This document shows positions 5,505 through 18,372 of a stretch of DNA of 64,000 nt, in pieces. Below the pieces are notes generated by a model. The model was not told the origin of the DNA. It made no database searches and saw only the letters and a list, made by a program, of their open reading frames with translations. Source of the DNA: a virus (taxonomy: Duplodnaviria > Caudoviricetes); the IMG/VR virus record IMGVR_UViG_3300020577_004280, positions 32,001 to 96,000 of that record, one strand, 5' to 3'. Both the position numbers and the translations under genes were made by a program. Each line of letters opens with the position of its first letter. Position 1 is the first letter of the stretch.

Positions 5505-5598
5505 GCGGAATAGCCTACATGGAGTAGGAGCGGTCTTATAAGCCGTCGGAAATTTATTGAAAAATGAATCCAAGCTGGTTCGATTCCAGCATTCCGCA
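5505..5598 (+). tRNA. tRNA-Ile(UAU) with long variable arm
   Basis: GCGGAAT/ATTCCGC acceptor, anticodon loop CTTATAA, T arm GCTGG-TTCGATT-CCAGC. Confidence 0.75.
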
Positions 5599-5659
5599 AT
5601 ATAATTAAGAATTATTTATAATGGGCGAAATAAAATGTGAAGTTGTATATTGCTCTTTT

Positions 5660-5746
5660 GCAGGTTTCCCATAGTCTGGCCGATTGGGATGGTTTTGTAA
5701 ACCATTGGTGTTTATACCCGCGTAGGTTCAAATCCTACAACCTGCT
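5660..5746 (+). tRNA. tRNA-Thr(UGU) with long variable arm
   Basis: GCAGGTT/AACCTGC, ATGGT-TTTGTAA-ACCAT, GTAGG-TTCAAAT-CCTAC. Confidence 0.75.
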
Positions 5747-13489: not shown

Positions 13490-13680
13490 TGAAAATCAAT
13501 TATAAGGTTACAAGCAGAGATTCAGAATATTTGAATTTACTATCCAAAATTCTTGAAAACTTCAGTTTACTATTAATTCCAGTATATATTTGTCTATTAG
13601 CAATAATAATACTATATTGGAAAATAATATTAGCTACATTAATTGTTGTAGTAGTAATTAAACAATTTATACCGAGATAG
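13489..13680 (+). CDS. small membrane protein
   Basis: Hydrophobic ORF; end overlaps the following RNA. Confidence 0.5.
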   Translation: MKINYKVTSRDSEYLNLLSKILENFSLLLIPVYICLLAIIILYWKIILATLIVVVVIKQFIPR

Positions 13681-13793
13681 CTCAGGTAGCAGAGCAACAA
13701 AGTCCAGTGAATTATTCATTATTTGCCAGTAATGGATGCGGAATAATCTACATATCAATTTGTAGGTCGTAGGTGCGAGTCCTACTCTCGGTT
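13671..13793 (+). ncRNA. Y RNA-like (YrlA-type) RNA with tRNA-like termini
   Basis: ACCGAGA/TCTCGGT acceptor, GCTC..GAGC D arm, GTAGG-TGCGAGT-CCTAC T arm; anticodon arm replaced by TTTGCCA-GTAA-TGGATG...TACAT stem; directly upstream of Ro60. Confidence 0.75.
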
Positions 13794-13855
13794 TTATTAC
13801 ATTGTCCTTTTAGGAAACTTAAACCATCGCTAAGCGATGTAGAGGAATGAAAATC

Positions 13856-15427
13856 ATGGTAAACAAATCAATGTTCAAAACTAACACACAAACAAAGCTT
13901 GTAAAGAACGAAGCTGGTGGTAACGCCTTCAGTCTTTCTGACGAAAATGCTCTATGTCAAATGGTTGTAACCAACTGTTTTAATGGAGTATATTACTCAA
14001 GTGCCGAAGAACTATTAAATAACGTGAAAAACATCCTAAAAGGATGTAGTTCACAATTAGTAGCTAAAGCCGCTGTGTATGGCCACGAGCAAGGTAGAAT
14101 GAAGGATATGCCAGCGTATCTACTAGCTGTTTTAGCTGCTCGCGGCGAAACAAAACTAGTTAACAGAATCTTCAATAGAGTTATTACTAACGCTAAAATG
14201 TTGTGTAACTTTGTACAAATTATTCGTAGCGGTGAAACTGGTCGTAAGTCATTTGGTTCTTCAATTAAGAAACTAATCCAAAATTGGCTAAATAATAGAA
14301 CACCAGATAGATTGTTTGATGACGCAGTTGGTCACGCCAAACCATCGTTAGCAGATGTAATTAAGATGGTTCACCCAAAACCATCTACTCCAGCACACGA
14401 AGCTATGTTTGCTTACCTAATCGGTAAGGATTATAATTGGGAAGTTATGCCAGAAAGAGTACGTCAATACGAAATCTTTAAGAAAACATCTGAAGGAAGT
14501 GTACCACAAGTAGATTTTCGTCTTTTGTCCAATCTGAAGTTATCTGACCTTCAATGGCGTGAAGTAGCTCTTAATATGAGATGGGATACATTACGACGTA
14601 ACCTAAACACAATTGGTCGTAATAATGTTCTCACTGATGATAAAACAGTAAAACTACTAGCTCGTAAACTAGGAGATGGAGAAACTGTACGGAAAGTGAA
14701 AGCTTTCCCATACGAATTACTTACAACTTATCTAAACGCTACAGACTTACCACAAACTCTTAAAAACTCACTACACGACGCTCTAGAAGCTTCTGTAGAT
14801 AATATTCCTGATTTCGGTATTAAGACTGTAGTATGTGTAGATACATCTGGTTCAATGTCCTCACCAATTACTGGTAGTCGTGGTACTGCTACTAGCAAGG
14901 CAACTTGTGTACAAGTAGCATCAGTTATCGCGGCATCAATATTGCGTAAGAATAGCGAACACACTTTAGTATTACCGTTTGATACATCTGTTCACTCTAT
15001 TCAAATTGATGGTAGAGATACTATCATGACTAACTCCCAAAAATTAGCTAGAAATGGTGGTGGTACAGATTGTAGTTGTGCATTACGTCACCTTAACCAC
15101 ACAGACCATAAGGCTGATTTGGTAATTTATGTATCTGATAATATGAGTTGGGCAGATTATGCTAGTAATCGAGGAGGATGTTGGTGGGCTGGCGGGTATA
15201 ATAATATCACCGGAACTAAAGCTGAATGGCAAAGCTATAAAAAACGTAACCCAAACGCCAAATTAGTTCTTATTGACCTACAACCATATACTACAACTCA
15301 AGTTAGTGATAGTAAGGATGTACTTAATATTGGCGGTTGGAATGATGCTCAATTTACAGCAATCGAAAGATTCGTAAATGGAGAAAAATTAGATTTTACC
15401 AAGATAATAAAAGAAACCACTATCTAA
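13856..15427 (+). CDS. rsr: Ro60/Rsr TROVE-vWA RNA-binding protein
   Basis: NEAGG N-terminus, RMKD, DVIKMVHPKP, TLRRNL, VDTSGSM MIDAS, GGGTD, VSDN; start moved from 13847 for SD spacing. Confidence 0.92.
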   Translation: MVNKSMFKTNTQTKLVKNEAGGNAFSLSDENALCQMVVTNCFNGVYYSSAEELLNNVKNILKGCSSQLVAKAAVYGHEQGRMKDMPAYLLAVLAARGETKLVNRIFNRVITNAKMLCNFVQIIRSGETGRKSFGSSIKKLIQNWLNNRTPDRLFDDAVGHAKPSLADVIKMVHPKPSTPAHEAMFAYLIGKDYNWEVMPERVRQYEIFKKTSEGSVPQVDFRLLSNLKLSDLQWREVALNMRWDTLRRNLNTIGRNNVLTDDKTVKLLARKLGDGETVRKVKAFPYELLTTYLNATDLPQTLKNSLHDALEASVDNIPDFGIKTVVCVDTSGSMSSPITGSRGTATSKATCVQVASVIAASILRKNSEHTLVLPFDTSVHSIQIDGRDTIMTNSQKLARNGGGTDCSCALRHLNHTDHKADLVIYVSDNMSWADYASNRGGCWWAGGYNNITGTKAEWQSYKKRNPNAKLVLIDLQPYTTTQVSDSKDVLNIGGWNDAQFTAIERFVNGEKLDFTKIIKETTI

Positions 15428-15445
15428 CGATAGTGTATTATGGAA

Positions 15446-15516
15446 AATTCCGAATGCTCGTGTCGATTACATCGAAAATGATTTCACCAAAAAATCGCAC
15501 AATTTTTGTCGGATTT
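15446..15516 (+). ncRNA. minimal Y RNA-like element 1
   Basis: TCCGA-ATG...GTGTCGATT-ACAT...AATCGCAC-AATTTTTG-TCGGA. Confidence 0.7.
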
Positions 15517-15546
15517 ATCTTTTAAACTACGTTTTCATCAGAAAAC

Positions 15547-15556
15547 GGTGTATAAT
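15547..15556 (+). promoter_or_regulatory. putative phage promoter GGTGTATAAT
   Basis: 45 nt upstream of ORF 15601. Confidence 0.45.
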
Positions 15557-15600
15557 ACTGTGTAAGATGTTAGTTAATTAAAACGGAGATTAGAAGTATC

Positions 15601-15877: not shown

Positions 15878-15944
15878 TTCTCAAATGCTTTAGTAAACTA
15901 CATAGGCTTTTATCTAAATAACGTTTACTTGATTTTGTTGAGAA
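15878..15944 (+). ncRNA. minimal Y RNA-like element 2
   Basis: TTCTCAA-ATG...AGTAAAC-TACAT...GTTTACT-TGATTTTG-TTGAGAA. Confidence 0.7.
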
Positions 15945-15950
15945 TTATAC

Positions 15951-16021
15951 AGCCAGTGGCAGGTAGGCATCTGGAAACCTCCCATAAGGGTTTTTAAGGA
16001 ATTCGATTTTCCAACTGGCTA
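15951..16021 (+). tRNA. tRNA-Met/Ile2(CAU), atypical
   Basis: AGCCAGT/ACTGGCT, AACCT-CCCATAA-GGGTT, GGAA-TTCGATT-TTCC. Confidence 0.65.
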
Positions 16022-16040
16022 CTAATCTTTGAGAGAAAGT

Positions 16041-16132: not shown

Positions 16133-16207
16133 GGGCTATTGGCACAGCGGCAACTGCAATAGATTTACATTCTATCCCAATCGTAGGTTCGAGTCCTACA
16201 TAGCCCA
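16133..16207 (+). tRNA. tRNA-Val(UAC)
   Basis: GGGCTAT/ATAGCCC, ATAGA-TTTACAT-TCTAT, canonical T arm. Confidence 0.9.
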
Positions 16208-16210
16208 TTT

Positions 16211-16337
16211 TGGTCGGTAGTTTAAGTAAAATGTACAAAGTTTAACTACCATCTCTTGCTGAGGAATCAGATGCTCGGCTAGTTTACATATTCTTCTGGT
16301 AAAGGAAAGATGTGGGTATCAAATCCCACCCGACCAC
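16211..16337 (+). ncRNA. tRNA-Thr(GGU)-like / Y RNA hybrid
   Basis: TGGTCGG/CCGACCA acceptor, TTCTT-CTGGTAA-AGGAA anticodon arm, GTGGG/CCCAC T arm, inserted CTTGCTGA-GGAA-TCAGATG...TACAT arm. Confidence 0.7.
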
Positions 16338-16378: not shown

Positions 16379-16591
16379 TTGTCAGAGACAATAAAGGAAA
16401 AGAAAATGCAAAAAGTAGACATGTCGGTTAAGGGACAAAATCGTAGGGTTTATCTAGAGAAGGCTATTAATAAGAATAGCTGGCTAGCTAGAGTATATGT
16501 AGGAAGCTCTGTAGTATCTGGAAAATTAGTAAAATATTCCAATGGTGCCAAGAGATTCTATCCATTAGGTAAAAATGCTAATCTAATTTAG
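16379..16591 (+). CDS. small basic hypothetical protein
   Basis: ORF; likely start ATG 16406. Confidence 0.55.
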   Translation: MSETIKEKKMQKVDMSVKGQNRRVYLEKAINKNSWLARVYVGSSVVSGKLVKYSNGAKRFYPLGKNANLI

Positions 16592-16728: not shown

Positions 16729-16816
16729 TCCAGTGGGGGTACTAACGGTAGTATCGTTCGGCTGTTAACCGAAAATGGGAGAAATCCCTATGCAAGTTCG
16801 AGTCTTGCCGCTGGAG
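16729..16816 (+). tRNA. tRNA-Asn(GUU) with long variable arm
   Basis: TCCAGTG/CGCTGGA-G, TTCGG-CTGTTAA-CCGAA, V arm GGGA-GAAA-TCCC. Confidence 0.85.
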
Positions 16817-16818
16817 CT

Positions 16819-16885
16819 AATCTGAATACTCATAAGAAGTACATATCTGTTAAATATCAATCCTTCTTATATCTCTTGTCAGATT
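16819..16885 (+). ncRNA. minimal Y RNA-like element 3
   Basis: AATCTGA-ATA...ATAAGAAG-TACAT...CTTCTTAT-ATCTCTTG-TCAGATT. Confidence 0.7.
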
Positions 16886-16909: not shown

Positions 16910-17770
16910 ATGAGTCAAAACCCAAAACTTACCAAGGAGATATTATCTCCATTAATTAATAAAGGTCTGAATGGAAGAGAAATAGCAGAAACTCTAGGTT
17001 ATTCTATATCTTATATACAACATCTAATGAGCAGATTAAATCTTAAATGTATAAGTAAAGATAAATATAAAAAAGATAAAATTGAAAAAGCCGTAAAAGA
17101 TTCGTTGTGTTTTAAAGATGTCTGTAGAAATCTGGATATTTCCCACCAAGGTGGAGCCTATATTAAACTAAAAATTCTTATTAAAAAATATAACATAGAT
17201 TGCTCCCATTTTCTTGGTAGTTCAGCATACTCTGGTAAAAGAAGAAAAAATTATCAGCCCGCCAAAAACGTGTTGCACGATAAGCATGAATTTAGGGTAT
17301 CATCAGAACAATTGAGAAGCCAAATGCTTGCCAACGGATTTGAATACATATGCGTAGAATGTGGGCAACAACCAGTTTGGAATAATAAACCTCTAACATT
17401 GCATATTGACCATATAAACGGTAACAATTGCGATAATCGAAAAGAAAATTTAAGATTTTTGTGTCCACACTGTCATAGCCAAACACCTAATTTTGGAAGT
17501 AAAAATTCTAAAAGAAATAAGAAAATATATTATTGTTTATGTGGCAATAAGAAAGAGAAAAAGTCAATTTCTTGCCAACAATGTTGTGTATTAAGAAAAA
17601 ATGACAAAATTCCTAAAAAAGAAGAATTAGAAAATCTTATTTGGGTAATACCCTCTACACATATAGCTAAAAAATATGGAGTGAGTGATAGAGCTATCGG
17701 AAAATGGTGTGTTAAATATAATATTGCTAAACCACCAAGAGGGTATTGGTTGAAAAATAAAGTGGTCTGA
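16910..17770 (+). mobile_element. HNH homing endonuclease
   Basis: LHIDHINGNNCDNRKENLRFLCPHCHSQT; HTH termini; C-terminal PPRGYW; stop lies inside tRNA-Phe. Confidence 0.85.
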
Positions 17771-18105: not shown

Positions 18106-18180
18106 ATCCGAATGTCAGTTGACGATTACATATTAAACTTTTATTTTAATCAAAAATATCGTTAACAATCCTTGTCGGAT
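18106..18180 (+). ncRNA. minimal Y RNA-like element 4
   Basis: ATCCGA-ATG...GTTGACGAT-TACAT-ATTAAA-CTTTTAT-TTTAAT...ATCGTTAAC-AATCCTTG-TCGGAT. Confidence 0.75.
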
Positions 18181-18271: not shown

Positions 18272-18372
18272 TGTGAATGCCTGATAGGTTTACATAGCTA
18301 AATGGTAAAGCAAAGGACACAATCCTCGATTGTAGGTTCAAATCCTACTAACAACTTATCAATTTTGTCACA
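18272..18372 (+). ncRNA. Y RNA-like element with internal D/T arms
   Basis: TGTGA-ATG..TGATAGGTT-TACAT, D-like GCT-AAATGGTAA-AGC, AGGA/TCCT hairpin, GTAGG-TTCAAAT-CCTAC, AACTTATCA-ATTTTG-TCACA. Confidence 0.75.

What the first reader, a model, noticed from the sequence alone, without database searches (positions are those of the whole stretch)
16211..16337. tRNA-Thr(GGU) body with a Ro-type arm grafted between the D and anticodon arms
Seen: acceptor TGGTCGG/CCGACCA, anticodon arm TTCTT-CTGGTAA-AGGAA and T arm GTGGG/CCCAC, plus an extra ~60-nt arm (ATGTA...AACTA...CTTG-CTGA-GGAA-TCAG-ATG...TAGTT-TACAT) containing the Y-like motif capped by a GNRA tetraloop. Inference: a tRNA-Y RNA chimera with free acceptor ends and a real anticodon loop; possibly chargeable, a nuclease bait tethered to Ro60, or an evolutionary intermediate between tRNA and Y RNA.
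Basis: partly seen in the sequence, partly recalled or inferred. Interest (0 to 1): 0.75.

Follow-up and report, generated by a model that had tools for sequence, protein, structure and literature searches.

The report
tRNA-shaped Y RNA of a phage
This 127-base phage gene encodes a tRNA-shaped RNA that carries, on an extra arm, the likely docking site for the phage's own Ro60-like ring protein. It is probably a non-decoding partner RNA of that protein and not a working threonine tRNA, in a layout I did not find described in the papers I searched.

Summary
Orthologues in two related phages keep the acceptor, D, T and capped-hairpin helices: 100% of cells pair and 11 of 20 pairs change on both sides.

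The extra arm holds a helix, an 8-nt loop ending in CUUG, a 4-bp stem with a GNRA cap, and a loop beginning AUGC followed by UACAU. This is the Ro60-binding module of bacterial YrlA Y RNAs, with the chain ends moved. YrlA has its ends in the Ro stem and a sealed acceptor. Here the Ro stem is sealed and the acceptor is open.

The gene lies 784 nt downstream of a phage rsr (Ro60) gene on the same strand. It is one of seven copies of the module in this window. At least 16 such tRNA-framed chimeras occur in related phages.

The "GGU anticodon" hairpin is not conserved, and the acceptor lacks the G1/C2 start of the genuine tRNA-Thr genes. The D loop has no GG and the T loop is 8 nt, so tRNA detectors miss it. 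Decoding or charging is therefore unlikely.

Rsr binding is inferred, not shown.

This scan has reported the same kind of chimera in at least eight other phage genomes. I class it as a new variant of a known kind.

The parts
16211..16217 (+). Acceptor stem, 5' strand (UGGUCGG). It starts 3 nt after tRNA-Val.
   Evidence: Pairs with 16330-16336. The 7 bp are kept in L004 and L007, with 6 of 7 pairs changed on both sides.
16220..16232 (+). Weak D arm: GUUU-AAGUA-AAAU. The loop lacks the GG found in the orthologues.
   Evidence: Alignment A5. The orthologues have GUCU-AACGGUA-GGAC and GUGU-AAUGGUA-GCAC. The stem pairs in all three.
16233..16243 (+). Linker GUACAAAGUUU. Its GUA may pair with UAC at 16285-16287.
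   Evidence: Read from the sequence. The pairing is only partly kept in L004 and L007.
16244..16250 (+). Helix I, 5' strand (AACUACC).
   Evidence: Pairs with 16277-16284, with C16279 bulged. L004 has AACUGCU/AG(C)UAGUU, where a C-G pair has become U-A.
16251..16258 (+). 8-nt internal-loop strand AUCUCUUG.
   Evidence: Same length and the same ...CUUG end as the 8-nt loop aAaAcUuG of the Rfam YrlA consensus. An identical or similar strand occurs in the six other copies in this window.
16259..16270 (+). Helix II capped by a GNRA tetraloop: CUGA-GGAA-UCAG.
   Evidence: L004 has CUAC-GAAA-GUAG and L007 has UUUA-GUAA-UAAA. Three of 4 pairs change on both sides.
16271..16276 (+). Internal-loop strand AUGCUC.
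   Evidence: Matches AUGCu of the YrlA consensus. It is identical in L004, L007 and the bare copy at 15454-15459.
16277..16284 (+). Helix I, 3' strand GG(C)UAGUU, with C16279 bulged.
16285..16289 (+). Conserved UACAU motif after helix I.
   Evidence: Invariant in all seven aligned modules. It corresponds to the conserved CUA after the same helix in YrlA. The UA there makes a kink in the crystal structure (doi 10.1101/312249).
16291..16307 (+). Extra hairpin UUCUU-CUGGUAA-AGGAA. It looks like an anticodon stem-loop with GGU.
   Evidence: A hairpin is kept in the orthologues, but its loop is not. Similar 7-nt loops with U at position 2 and A at position 6 follow UACAU in four other copies in this window, three on stems of only 2-3 bp.
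16312..16329 (+). T arm GUGGG-UAUCAAAU-CCCAC, with an 8-nt loop.
   Evidence: In one search, the other frames with canonical D and T arms all have 7-nt T loops such as UUCGAAU.
16330..16337 (+). Acceptor stem, 3' strand CCGACCA, plus discriminator C. No CCA is encoded.
13847..15427 (+). rsr, a 526-aa Ro60/TROVE-type gene and the presumed protein partner.
   Evidence: Pfam vWA_Ro60, E 2.8e-11. PDB 2NVO (D. radiodurans Rsr), E 4.8e-12, and human RO60.
13671..13793 (+). Sibling tRNA-framed chimera just upstream of rsr. Here the module replaces the anticodon loop.
   Evidence: The Rfam tRNA model scores it 43.6 bits.
15449..15513 (+). Bare Y-like RNA with the same module and free ends: UCCGA-AUGCUC-helix-UACAU...helix-AAUUUUUG-UCGGA.
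15880..15942 (+). Bare Y-like RNA, second copy.
16821..16883 (+). Bare Y-like RNA, third copy.
18106..18180 (+). Bare Y-like RNA, fourth copy.
18272..18372 (+). Y stem taking the place of the acceptor stem of a tRNA-like core (D arm, hairpin, T arm).
   Evidence: The Rfam tRNA model hits 18288-18356.
16133..16207 (+). tRNA-Val(UAC) immediately upstream. The element is probably made from the same precursor.

Best explanation
The gene encodes a non-decoding, tRNA-framed Y-like RNA.

Shown:
- It has a 7-bp acceptor stem with free ends, a T arm and a weak D arm.
- It has a roughly 46-nt arm whose anatomy matches the Ro60-binding module of YrlA Y RNAs part for part.
- It lies on the rsr strand, 784 nt downstream of a phage Ro60 homologue, inside a tRNA and Y-RNA cluster.
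- Orthologues in related phages covary.

Inferred:
- It is transcribed with the neighbouring tRNAs.
- RNase P cuts its 5' end, and its 3' end is trimmed and perhaps given CCA by host enzymes.
- The phage Rsr ring binds the capped arm.
- The tRNA-shaped part serves as the effector end, as in YrlA. It would link Rsr to a tRNA-binding host or phage factor, or act as a tRNA look-alike.

The layout is a circular permutation of YrlA. The window copy has a degraded tRNA elbow, so the arm is probably its best-preserved working part.
For: Context:
- The Rsr gene is confirmed.

Match to YrlA:
- The Rfam consensus reads stem, AUGCu (5 nt), 7-bp helix, CUA, and on the return strand an 8-nt aAaAcUuG.
- The element reads AACUACC, AUCUCUUG, CUGA-GGAA-UCAG, AUGCUC, GG(C)UAGUU, UACAU.

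Other copies of the module:
- The same module occurs with free ends four times and in two other layouts in this window.
- Over 763 kb of rsr neighbourhoods, the permuted module hits 44 times on the rsr strand. It hits 8 times on the other strand and 7.3 times in shuffles.
- Of 33 unique hits, 19 sit in an acceptor-plus-T-arm frame, and at least 16 of these look like genuine tRNA frames.

Covariation:
- Eleven of 20 pairs change on both sides, and all cells pair.

Precedents:
- M. smegmatis YrlA is cut by RNase P and receives CCA (PMC4201824).
- The Ro60 of Thermus phage phiLo binds phage-encoded Y-like RNAs (PMC12135203).
Against: - No binding or expression data exist.
- The Rfam YrlA model does not match. 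Its only hit, 15 bits against a cut-off of 69, is the known tandem-tRNA artefact.
- The GNCGAA(N)G motif of YrlA is only partly present (UCAGAUG).
- Thermodynamic folding of the window copy favours another fold by 8.4 kcal/mol. That fold uses a GGUAGUU:AACUACC pairing, and the D arm and both arm helices have under 5% ensemble probability.
- The closest relative by Rsr identity (L002, 88%) has tRNA-Phe at the matching position after tRNA-Val, and no second chimera in the held part of its contig.
- The D and T loops that form the tRNA elbow are deviant in this copy.
Confidence: 0.68

Rival explanations
1. It is a decaying, no longer functional duplicate of a tRNA-framed Y RNA. The upstream copy at 13671-13793 and the bare Y-like RNAs do the work.
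For: - The D loop has lost the GG, and the T loop carries an extra base. Both orthologues and the other frames with canonical D and T arms keep canonical loops.
- tRNA detectors do not see it.
- A competing 7-bp pairing destabilises the comparative fold.
- The closest relative, L002, lacks it in the held part of its contig.
Against: - Every defining piece of the module is intact: the 8-nt ...CUUG loop, the GNRA cap, AUGCUC and UACAU.
- All 20 tested base pairs are kept.
- The arm is somewhat better conserved against L004 (77%) than the rsr gene is (69%).
Confidence: 0.15
2. The conserved arm docks a different factor, or is a processing or stability element, and has nothing to do with Rsr.
For: Rsr binding is inferred only from context and motif likeness. 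The Rfam YrlA and Y_RNA models give no true hit.
Against: - The module is strongly enriched on the rsr strand next to rsr in about a hundred loci.
- It matches the YrlA module in part order, in loop lengths (8 nt, and 6 nt here against 5 nt in YrlA) and in loop sequences.
Confidence: 0.1
3. It is a genuine decoding tRNA-Thr(GGU). The extra arm is tolerated, or is removed like an intron.
For: - It has a 7-nt loop CUGGUAA with U33 and A37 on a 5-bp stem.
- Real phage tRNA-Thr(GGU) genes in related loci have UUGGUAA or CUGGUAG loops.
- It has a 7-bp acceptor and a 4-nt variable loop.
Against: - The loop is not conserved in the orthologues.
- The acceptor begins U1-G2, whereas 18 of the 20 tRNA-Thr genes called in the related loci begin G1-C2.
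- The insert lies between the D arm and the hairpin, not in the anticodon loop.
- The insert is only about 57 nt and gives no group I intron match.
- The phage has no splicing endonuclease or RtcB gene.
- The insert is the most conserved part and also exists as free-standing RNAs.
Confidence: 0.04
4. It is a chance resemblance in AT-rich intergenic DNA.
For: The z-score of the single-sequence fold is only -2.1.
Against: Orthologues with compensatory changes exist. The motif is enriched over shuffles and over the opposite strand.
Confidence: 0.01

Closest known systems
YrlA (Y RNA-like A; Rfam RF02553; Chen et al. 2014, PMC4201824; structure in doi 10.1101/312249)
   Same: - It is encoded within 4 kb of rsr on the same strand.
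- It has two modules: a Ro60-binding stem with an asymmetric internal loop (AUGCN on one strand, an 8-nt ...CUUG on the other), and a tRNA-like domain.
- A conserved (C)UA follows the inner helix.
   Different: - The chain ends differ. YrlA has its 5' and 3' ends in the Ro stem and a sealed acceptor, in the order T arm, acceptor, D arm. This RNA has open acceptor ends in normal tRNA order (D, then T), and a GNRA tetraloop seals the Ro stem.
- It has an extra anticodon-like hairpin.
- The Rfam model does not match it.
- The GNCGAA(N)G motif is only partly present.
M. smegmatis YrlA after processing (PMC4201824)
   Same: It is a tRNA-like Y RNA whose acceptor stem is open. RNase P cuts it and it carries CCA.
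   Different: That RNA becomes two pieces held together by base pairing. Here a single chain reaches the same overall shape because the Ro stem is closed.
D. radiodurans Yrn1, and Yrl1/Yrl2 of Thermus phage phiLo (PMC4201824; PMC12135203)
   Same: They are Ro60-bound RNAs encoded beside rsr. The phiLo RNAs are phage-encoded. They tether host PNPase.
   Different: They have the canonical layout, with a terminal 5'/3' stem. They have no free acceptor stem, and phiLo Yrl1/Yrl2 are not described as tRNA-like.
Canonical tRNA, including class II tRNAs with a long variable arm
   Same: It has a 7-bp acceptor, a 5-bp T stem next to it, a D stem, and two arms between D and T as in class II tRNAs. It lies in a tRNA cluster.
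   Different: tRNA detectors do not recognise it. The D and T loops are deviant. The long arm carries a Y module where a tRNA has its anticodon. The anticodon-like loop is not conserved.

Membership tests
YrlA (RF02553) | Encoded near rsr, on the same strand (within 4 kb; Chen 2014) | tested here: met
   rsr lies at 13847-15427 (+) and the element at 16211-16337 (+), 784 nt downstream.
YrlA (RF02553) | Match to the Rfam covariance model at or above 69 bits | tested here: not met
   The only hit scores 15 bits, at 16153-16265. It spans the tRNA-Val T arm plus this element's D arm, which is the tandem-tRNA artefact.
YrlA (RF02553) | Ro-binding module: outer stem, then a 5-nt AUGCN loop opposite an 8-nt ...CUUG loop, then a 7-bp helix, then CUA | tested here: met
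   The element reads CUGA/UCAG, AUGCUC, AUCUCUUG, AACUACC/GG(C)UAGUU and UACAU. I compared this by eye with the consensus printed; I did not score it with a model. The loop after the outer stem has 6 nt (AUGCUC), against 5 nt in the consensus.
YrlA (RF02553) | GNCGAA(N0-1)G motif on the strand entering the loop | tested here: inconclusive
   The element has AUCAGAUG. The bare copies in the same window have UCCGAAUG.
YrlA (RF02553) | RNA ends in the Ro stem, a sealed acceptor stem-loop, and T arm 5' of D arm | tested here: not met
   The arrangement is the opposite: D arm 5' of T arm, acceptor strands at the two ends, and a GGAA loop sealing the Ro stem.
YrlA (RF02553) | Conserved D and T loops that form a tRNA elbow | tested here: not met
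   The window copy has D loop AAGUA with no GG and T loop UAUCAAAU of 8 nt. The orthologues L004 and L007 do meet this feature.
YrlA (RF02553) | Bound by Rsr/Ro60 | not testable with these tools
   This needs pull-down or gel-shift experiments.
Decoding tRNA-Thr(GGU) | Recognised by tRNA detectors | tested here: not met
   ARAGORN does not call it, with or without introns allowed. The Rfam tRNA model gives no hit at E up to 10.
Decoding tRNA-Thr(GGU) | Anticodon loop conserved among orthologues | tested here: not met
   The loop is CUGGUAA here, GUUAAAGA in L004 and GGCU, or UUGGCUA, in L007.
Decoding tRNA-Thr(GGU) | Acceptor pairs G1-C72 and C2-G71. These are ThrRS identity elements in E. coli, from my own knowledge. 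| tested here: not met
   The element has U1-A72 and G2-C71. Of the 20 tRNA-Thr genes called in the related loci, 18 begin GC.
tRNA intron (bacterial group I or archaeal bulge-helix-bulge) | Lies in the anticodon loop, and has a group I core or a splicing endonuclease available | tested here: not met
   The insert lies between the D arm and the hairpin and is about 57 nt. No intron family matches. The phage has no PF01974 gene.

The most novel reading that the evidence does not exclude
The RNA is a working, RNase P-processed and CCA-tailed tRNA decoy held on the phage Ro60 ring. Its arm docks Rsr, and its anticodon-like hairpin (Thr GGU here; Lys-, Asn- and Glu-like loops on sibling copies) is offered to host anticodon-cutting defence nucleases or to tRNA-modifying enzymes. 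This would make the Rsr and Y-RNA set an anti-defence particle. tRNA-order Y RNAs like this one would also be the ancestral form from which YrlA arose.
Probability: 0.15. Interest if true: 0.85.

Novelty: new variant of a known kind. Interest (0 to 1): 0.6.

Why it matters
Y RNAs are the obligatory partners of Ro60, a conserved RNA quality-control protein and human autoantigen. Bacterial YrlA is known to imitate tRNA, but always with a sealed acceptor stem, and its origin from tRNA is only a model.

A natural Y-type RNA in normal tRNA order with free acceptor ends has three consequences:
- It provides the missing layout, and so makes the tRNA-origin question testable by comparison.
- It predicts that the tRNA maturation enzymes (RNase P, 3' trimming, CCA addition) make Y RNAs in phages.
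- It suggests that some genes annotated, or overlooked, as odd phage tRNAs are in fact Ro60 partners. The PhageMaP preprint raised this only as a guess for phage Bas63, whose Ro60-like protein counters a defence system (PMC11482910).

This genome also carries an Rnl1-type RNA ligase and a kinase. That links the locus to conflicts over tRNA cleavage.

Tried and rejected
- Megablast of 6 kb around the element against isolated phages found nothing.
- A single-protein Rsr search and two exact DNA patterns in IMG/VR found nothing. Relatives came only from the protein cluster search and from alignment-based scans.
- As a positive control for the Rfam YrlA model I searched 3 kb either side of rsr in mycobacteriophage Myrna, and the region around rsr in Myxococcus phage Mx1. 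Neither gave a YrlA hit at E up to 0.01, so I have no in-session positive control for that model.
- My first motif descriptor was too loose: 77 hits on the rsr strand against 48 in shuffles. I replaced it with a stricter one.
- MAFFT alignments of the modules and of the whole elements were not structurally consistent for helix I or for the extra hairpin. I therefore built no covariance model. I counted covariation only for the four helices that align in register, and read helix I by hand.
- I first read CTTGTTGAGA upstream of the elements as a promoter. It is the 3' half of a bare Y-like RNA.
- The promoter and terminator scan was no better than shuffles for promoters, 31 against 29.
- Two review papers (PMC10870794, PMC6047535) are not held.

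Full report
**What is there**

The window is bases 32001-96000 of a single 154-kb phage contig with about 33% G+C.

A 526-aa Ro60/Rsr homologue is encoded at 13847-15427 (+). It matches Pfam vWA_Ro60. It also matches the solved structures of D. radiodurans Rsr (2NVO, E 4.8e-12) and human RO60.

Downstream on the same strand lies a cluster of tRNA genes and a tmRNA gene.

The finding begins 3 nt after tRNA-Val(UAC).
- The acceptor pairs 16211-16217 with 16330-16336.
- The hairpin UUCUU-CUGGUAA-AGGAA lies at 16291-16307.
- The T stem pairs 16312-16316 with 16325-16329.
- A long arm lies between them.

In the long arm, AACUACC (16244-16250) pairs with GG(C)UAGUU (16277-16284). This helix encloses three parts:
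- the 8-nt strand AUCUCUUG;
- the capped hairpin CUGA-GGAA-UCAG;
- the strand AUGCUC.

UACAU follows the helix.

**Is it real?**

No close relative exists among isolated phages or by simple searches. The Rsr protein, however, has thousands of metagenomic relatives. I fetched about 110 rsr neighbourhoods.

Two of them hold orthologues of the element about 155 nt downstream of rsr. These are L004 2442-2568 (Rsr 72% identical) and L007 5457-5581 (61%).

I counted pairs for the four helices that align in register: acceptor, D, capped hairpin and T. Every cell pairs, and 11 of 20 pairs change on both sides. Sliding the partners by 1-3 columns gives 33-50% pairing.

Helix I also shows a compensatory change. 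AACUACC/GG(C)UAGUU here becomes AACUGCU/AG(C)UAGUU in L004.

The strict motif TTG-stem-GNRA-stem-ATG occurs seven times in 475 kb, both strands, and always in such elements. Shuffles give 1.0 on average.

**What the arm is**

One search prints the Rfam YrlA consensus. It reads: outer stem cggCga/ucGccg, a 5-nt loop AUGCu, a 7-bp helix, then CUA. On the return strand there is an 8-nt loop aAaAcUuG.

The element has the same parts in the same relative order. The 8-nt loop is the same length and the other loop is one nucleotide longer (AUGCUC). The conserved letters are the same: ...CUUG, AUGC and (U)UA.

The difference is in where the chain ends lie. A tetraloop seals the outer stem, and the chain ends lie in the acceptor stem. 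This is a circular permutation of YrlA, whose ends lie in the Ro stem and whose acceptor is sealed (PMC4201824; doi 10.1101/312249).

The same module occurs with free ends at 15449-15513, 15880-15942, 16821-16883 and 18106-18180. Two of these carry UCCGAAUG, close to the GNCGAA(N)G motif of YrlA. The module takes the place of an acceptor stem at 18272-18372. It sits inside the anticodon stem of a tRNA frame at 13671-13793, which I had already found independently.

An explicit descriptor run over 763 kb gave these counts:

| Module form | rsr strand | Other strand | Shuffles |
|---|---|---|---|
| Permuted | 44 | 8 | 7.3 |
| Free-ended | 166 | 17 | 29 |

Of the 33 unique permuted hits, 19 lie in a frame with a 7-bp acceptor and an adjacent T arm. 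At least 16 of these look like genuine tRNA frames. They come from 11 or more phage lineages, with Rsr identity of 39-88%.

**What it is not**

It is unlikely to be a working tRNA-Thr, for these reasons:
- The loop of the anticodon-like hairpin is CUGGUAA here. It is GUUAAAGA in L004 and GGCU, or UUGGCUA, in L007.
- The acceptor begins U1-G2. Eighteen of the 20 tRNA-Thr genes called in the related loci begin G1-C2. By my own knowledge these pairs are ThrRS identity elements.
- The D loop lacks GG and the T loop has 8 nt. The orthologues and the other frames with canonical D and T arms have canonical loops.
- ARAGORN and the Rfam tRNA model miss the element even at E = 10. The upstream sibling scores 43.6 bits.

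An intron reading also fails:
- The insert is not in the anticodon loop, and it is only about 57 nt long.
- It matches no intron family.
- It is the conserved part of the element, and it also exists as free-standing RNAs.
- The phage has no splicing endonuclease or RtcB gene.

**Weak points**

- Rsr binding and expression are inferred, not shown.
- The Rfam YrlA model gives only a 15-bit artefact across the tRNA-Val/element junction.
- For the window copy, the comparative fold costs -24.6 kcal/mol against -33.0 for the minimum-energy fold. The latter uses GGUAGUU (16216-16222) paired with AACUACC. This pairing is not possible in the orthologues.
- The closest relative, L002, has tRNA-Phe at the corresponding place and no second chimera in the held part of its contig.
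- The degraded elbow and these points leave a real chance (about 0.15) that this copy is decaying.

**Likely mechanism**

The RNA is probably co-transcribed with tRNA-Val and the Y-like RNAs. RNase P would cut its 5' end and host enzymes would trim its 3' end. No CCA is encoded, and the phage has no CCA-adding enzyme. Rsr would then bind the capped arm.

There are precedents. M. smegmatis YrlA is cut by RNase P and receives CCA. The Ro60 of phage phiLo binds phage Y-like RNAs and recruits host PNPase.

The tRNA-shaped end would be the effector end.

**A possible decoy role**

A more speculative layer concerns the hairpin that follows UACAU. In five of the seven copies in this window it has a 7-nt loop with U at position 2 and A at position 6. 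The loops are CUGGUAA, CUGUUAA, CUUUUAU (twice) and AUUUCAC, though three of them sit on stems of only 2-3 bp.

Across all loci, 15 of the 32 seven-nt loops at this place have U at position 2 and a purine at position 6. About 5 would be expected from base composition, by my own estimate.

The genome also encodes an Rnl1-type RNA ligase near an AAA_33 kinase.

Together these fit a role as a decoy or sensor in conflicts over anticodon cleavage. The orthologues of this element do not keep such a loop, so I give this reading a probability of only about 0.15.

**Novelty**

I searched the held literature four times and read five papers. I found YrlA, Yrn1 and the phiLo Yrl RNAs, all with the ends in the Ro stem. 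I also found a guess that some Bas63 tRNA genes may be Y RNAs. I found no description of a Y RNA in tRNA order with free acceptor ends.

Notes of this scan report the same kind of chimera in at least eight other phage genomes. I did not test those.

I class this element as a new variant of a known kind.

Noticed in passing
window 15950-16023: A tRNA-Met-like gene that ARAGORN and Rfam do not call. Its anticodon loop reads CCCAUAA, with C at position 33. The orthologue in L002 (6409-6480) reads CUCAUAA and is called tRNA-Met.
   Followed up: partly
G000 contig 1, about 13580-15600 (outside the window; locus L112 414-2433): An AAA_33 P-loop kinase lies two genes upstream of an Rnl1-type RNA ligase (PF09511, 70 bits), with an isochorismatase-domain gene between them. 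This is a possible tRNA-repair pair as in T4. The phage has no RtcB.
   Followed up: partly
L023 3466-3486, L047 3469-3487, L040 3431-3454: A UUG-hairpin-AUG motif lies immediately before the ribosome-binding site of rsr in three distant phages. It may be a Y-module look-alike in the rsr leader, or it may be chance.
   Followed up: no
window 16216-16222 versus 16277-16284: GGUAGUU, at the acceptor/D junction, repeats the 3' strand of helix I without its bulged C. This gives AACUACC two possible partners. The orthologues do not share this.
   Followed up: partly
window 5505-5598, 5660-5746, 16729-16817: tRNA-Ile(UAU), tRNA-Thr(UGU) and tRNA-Asn(GUU) genes of 87-94 nt with unusually long variable regions for these amino acids.
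   Followed up: no
window 16910-17770; L002 5200-5898: Homing-endonuclease-type genes sit inside the tRNA and Y-RNA cluster: an HNH gene here, and a LAGLIDADG gene right after rsr in L002. They may explain why the order of RNAs differs between close relatives.
   Followed up: no
window 16379-16591: A small 70-aa ORF just downstream of the element. It is conserved in L002, L004 and L005 (70-78% nucleotide identity) and has no Pfam match.
   Followed up: no
L041 5833-6311: Three tRNA-framed Y chimeras in tandem in a distant phage (Rsr 39% identical), with a possible fourth just upstream (module at 5639-5697). In one, UACAU is followed by GG-CUUUUAA-CC, a loop like that of tRNA-Lys(UUU).
   Followed up: partly
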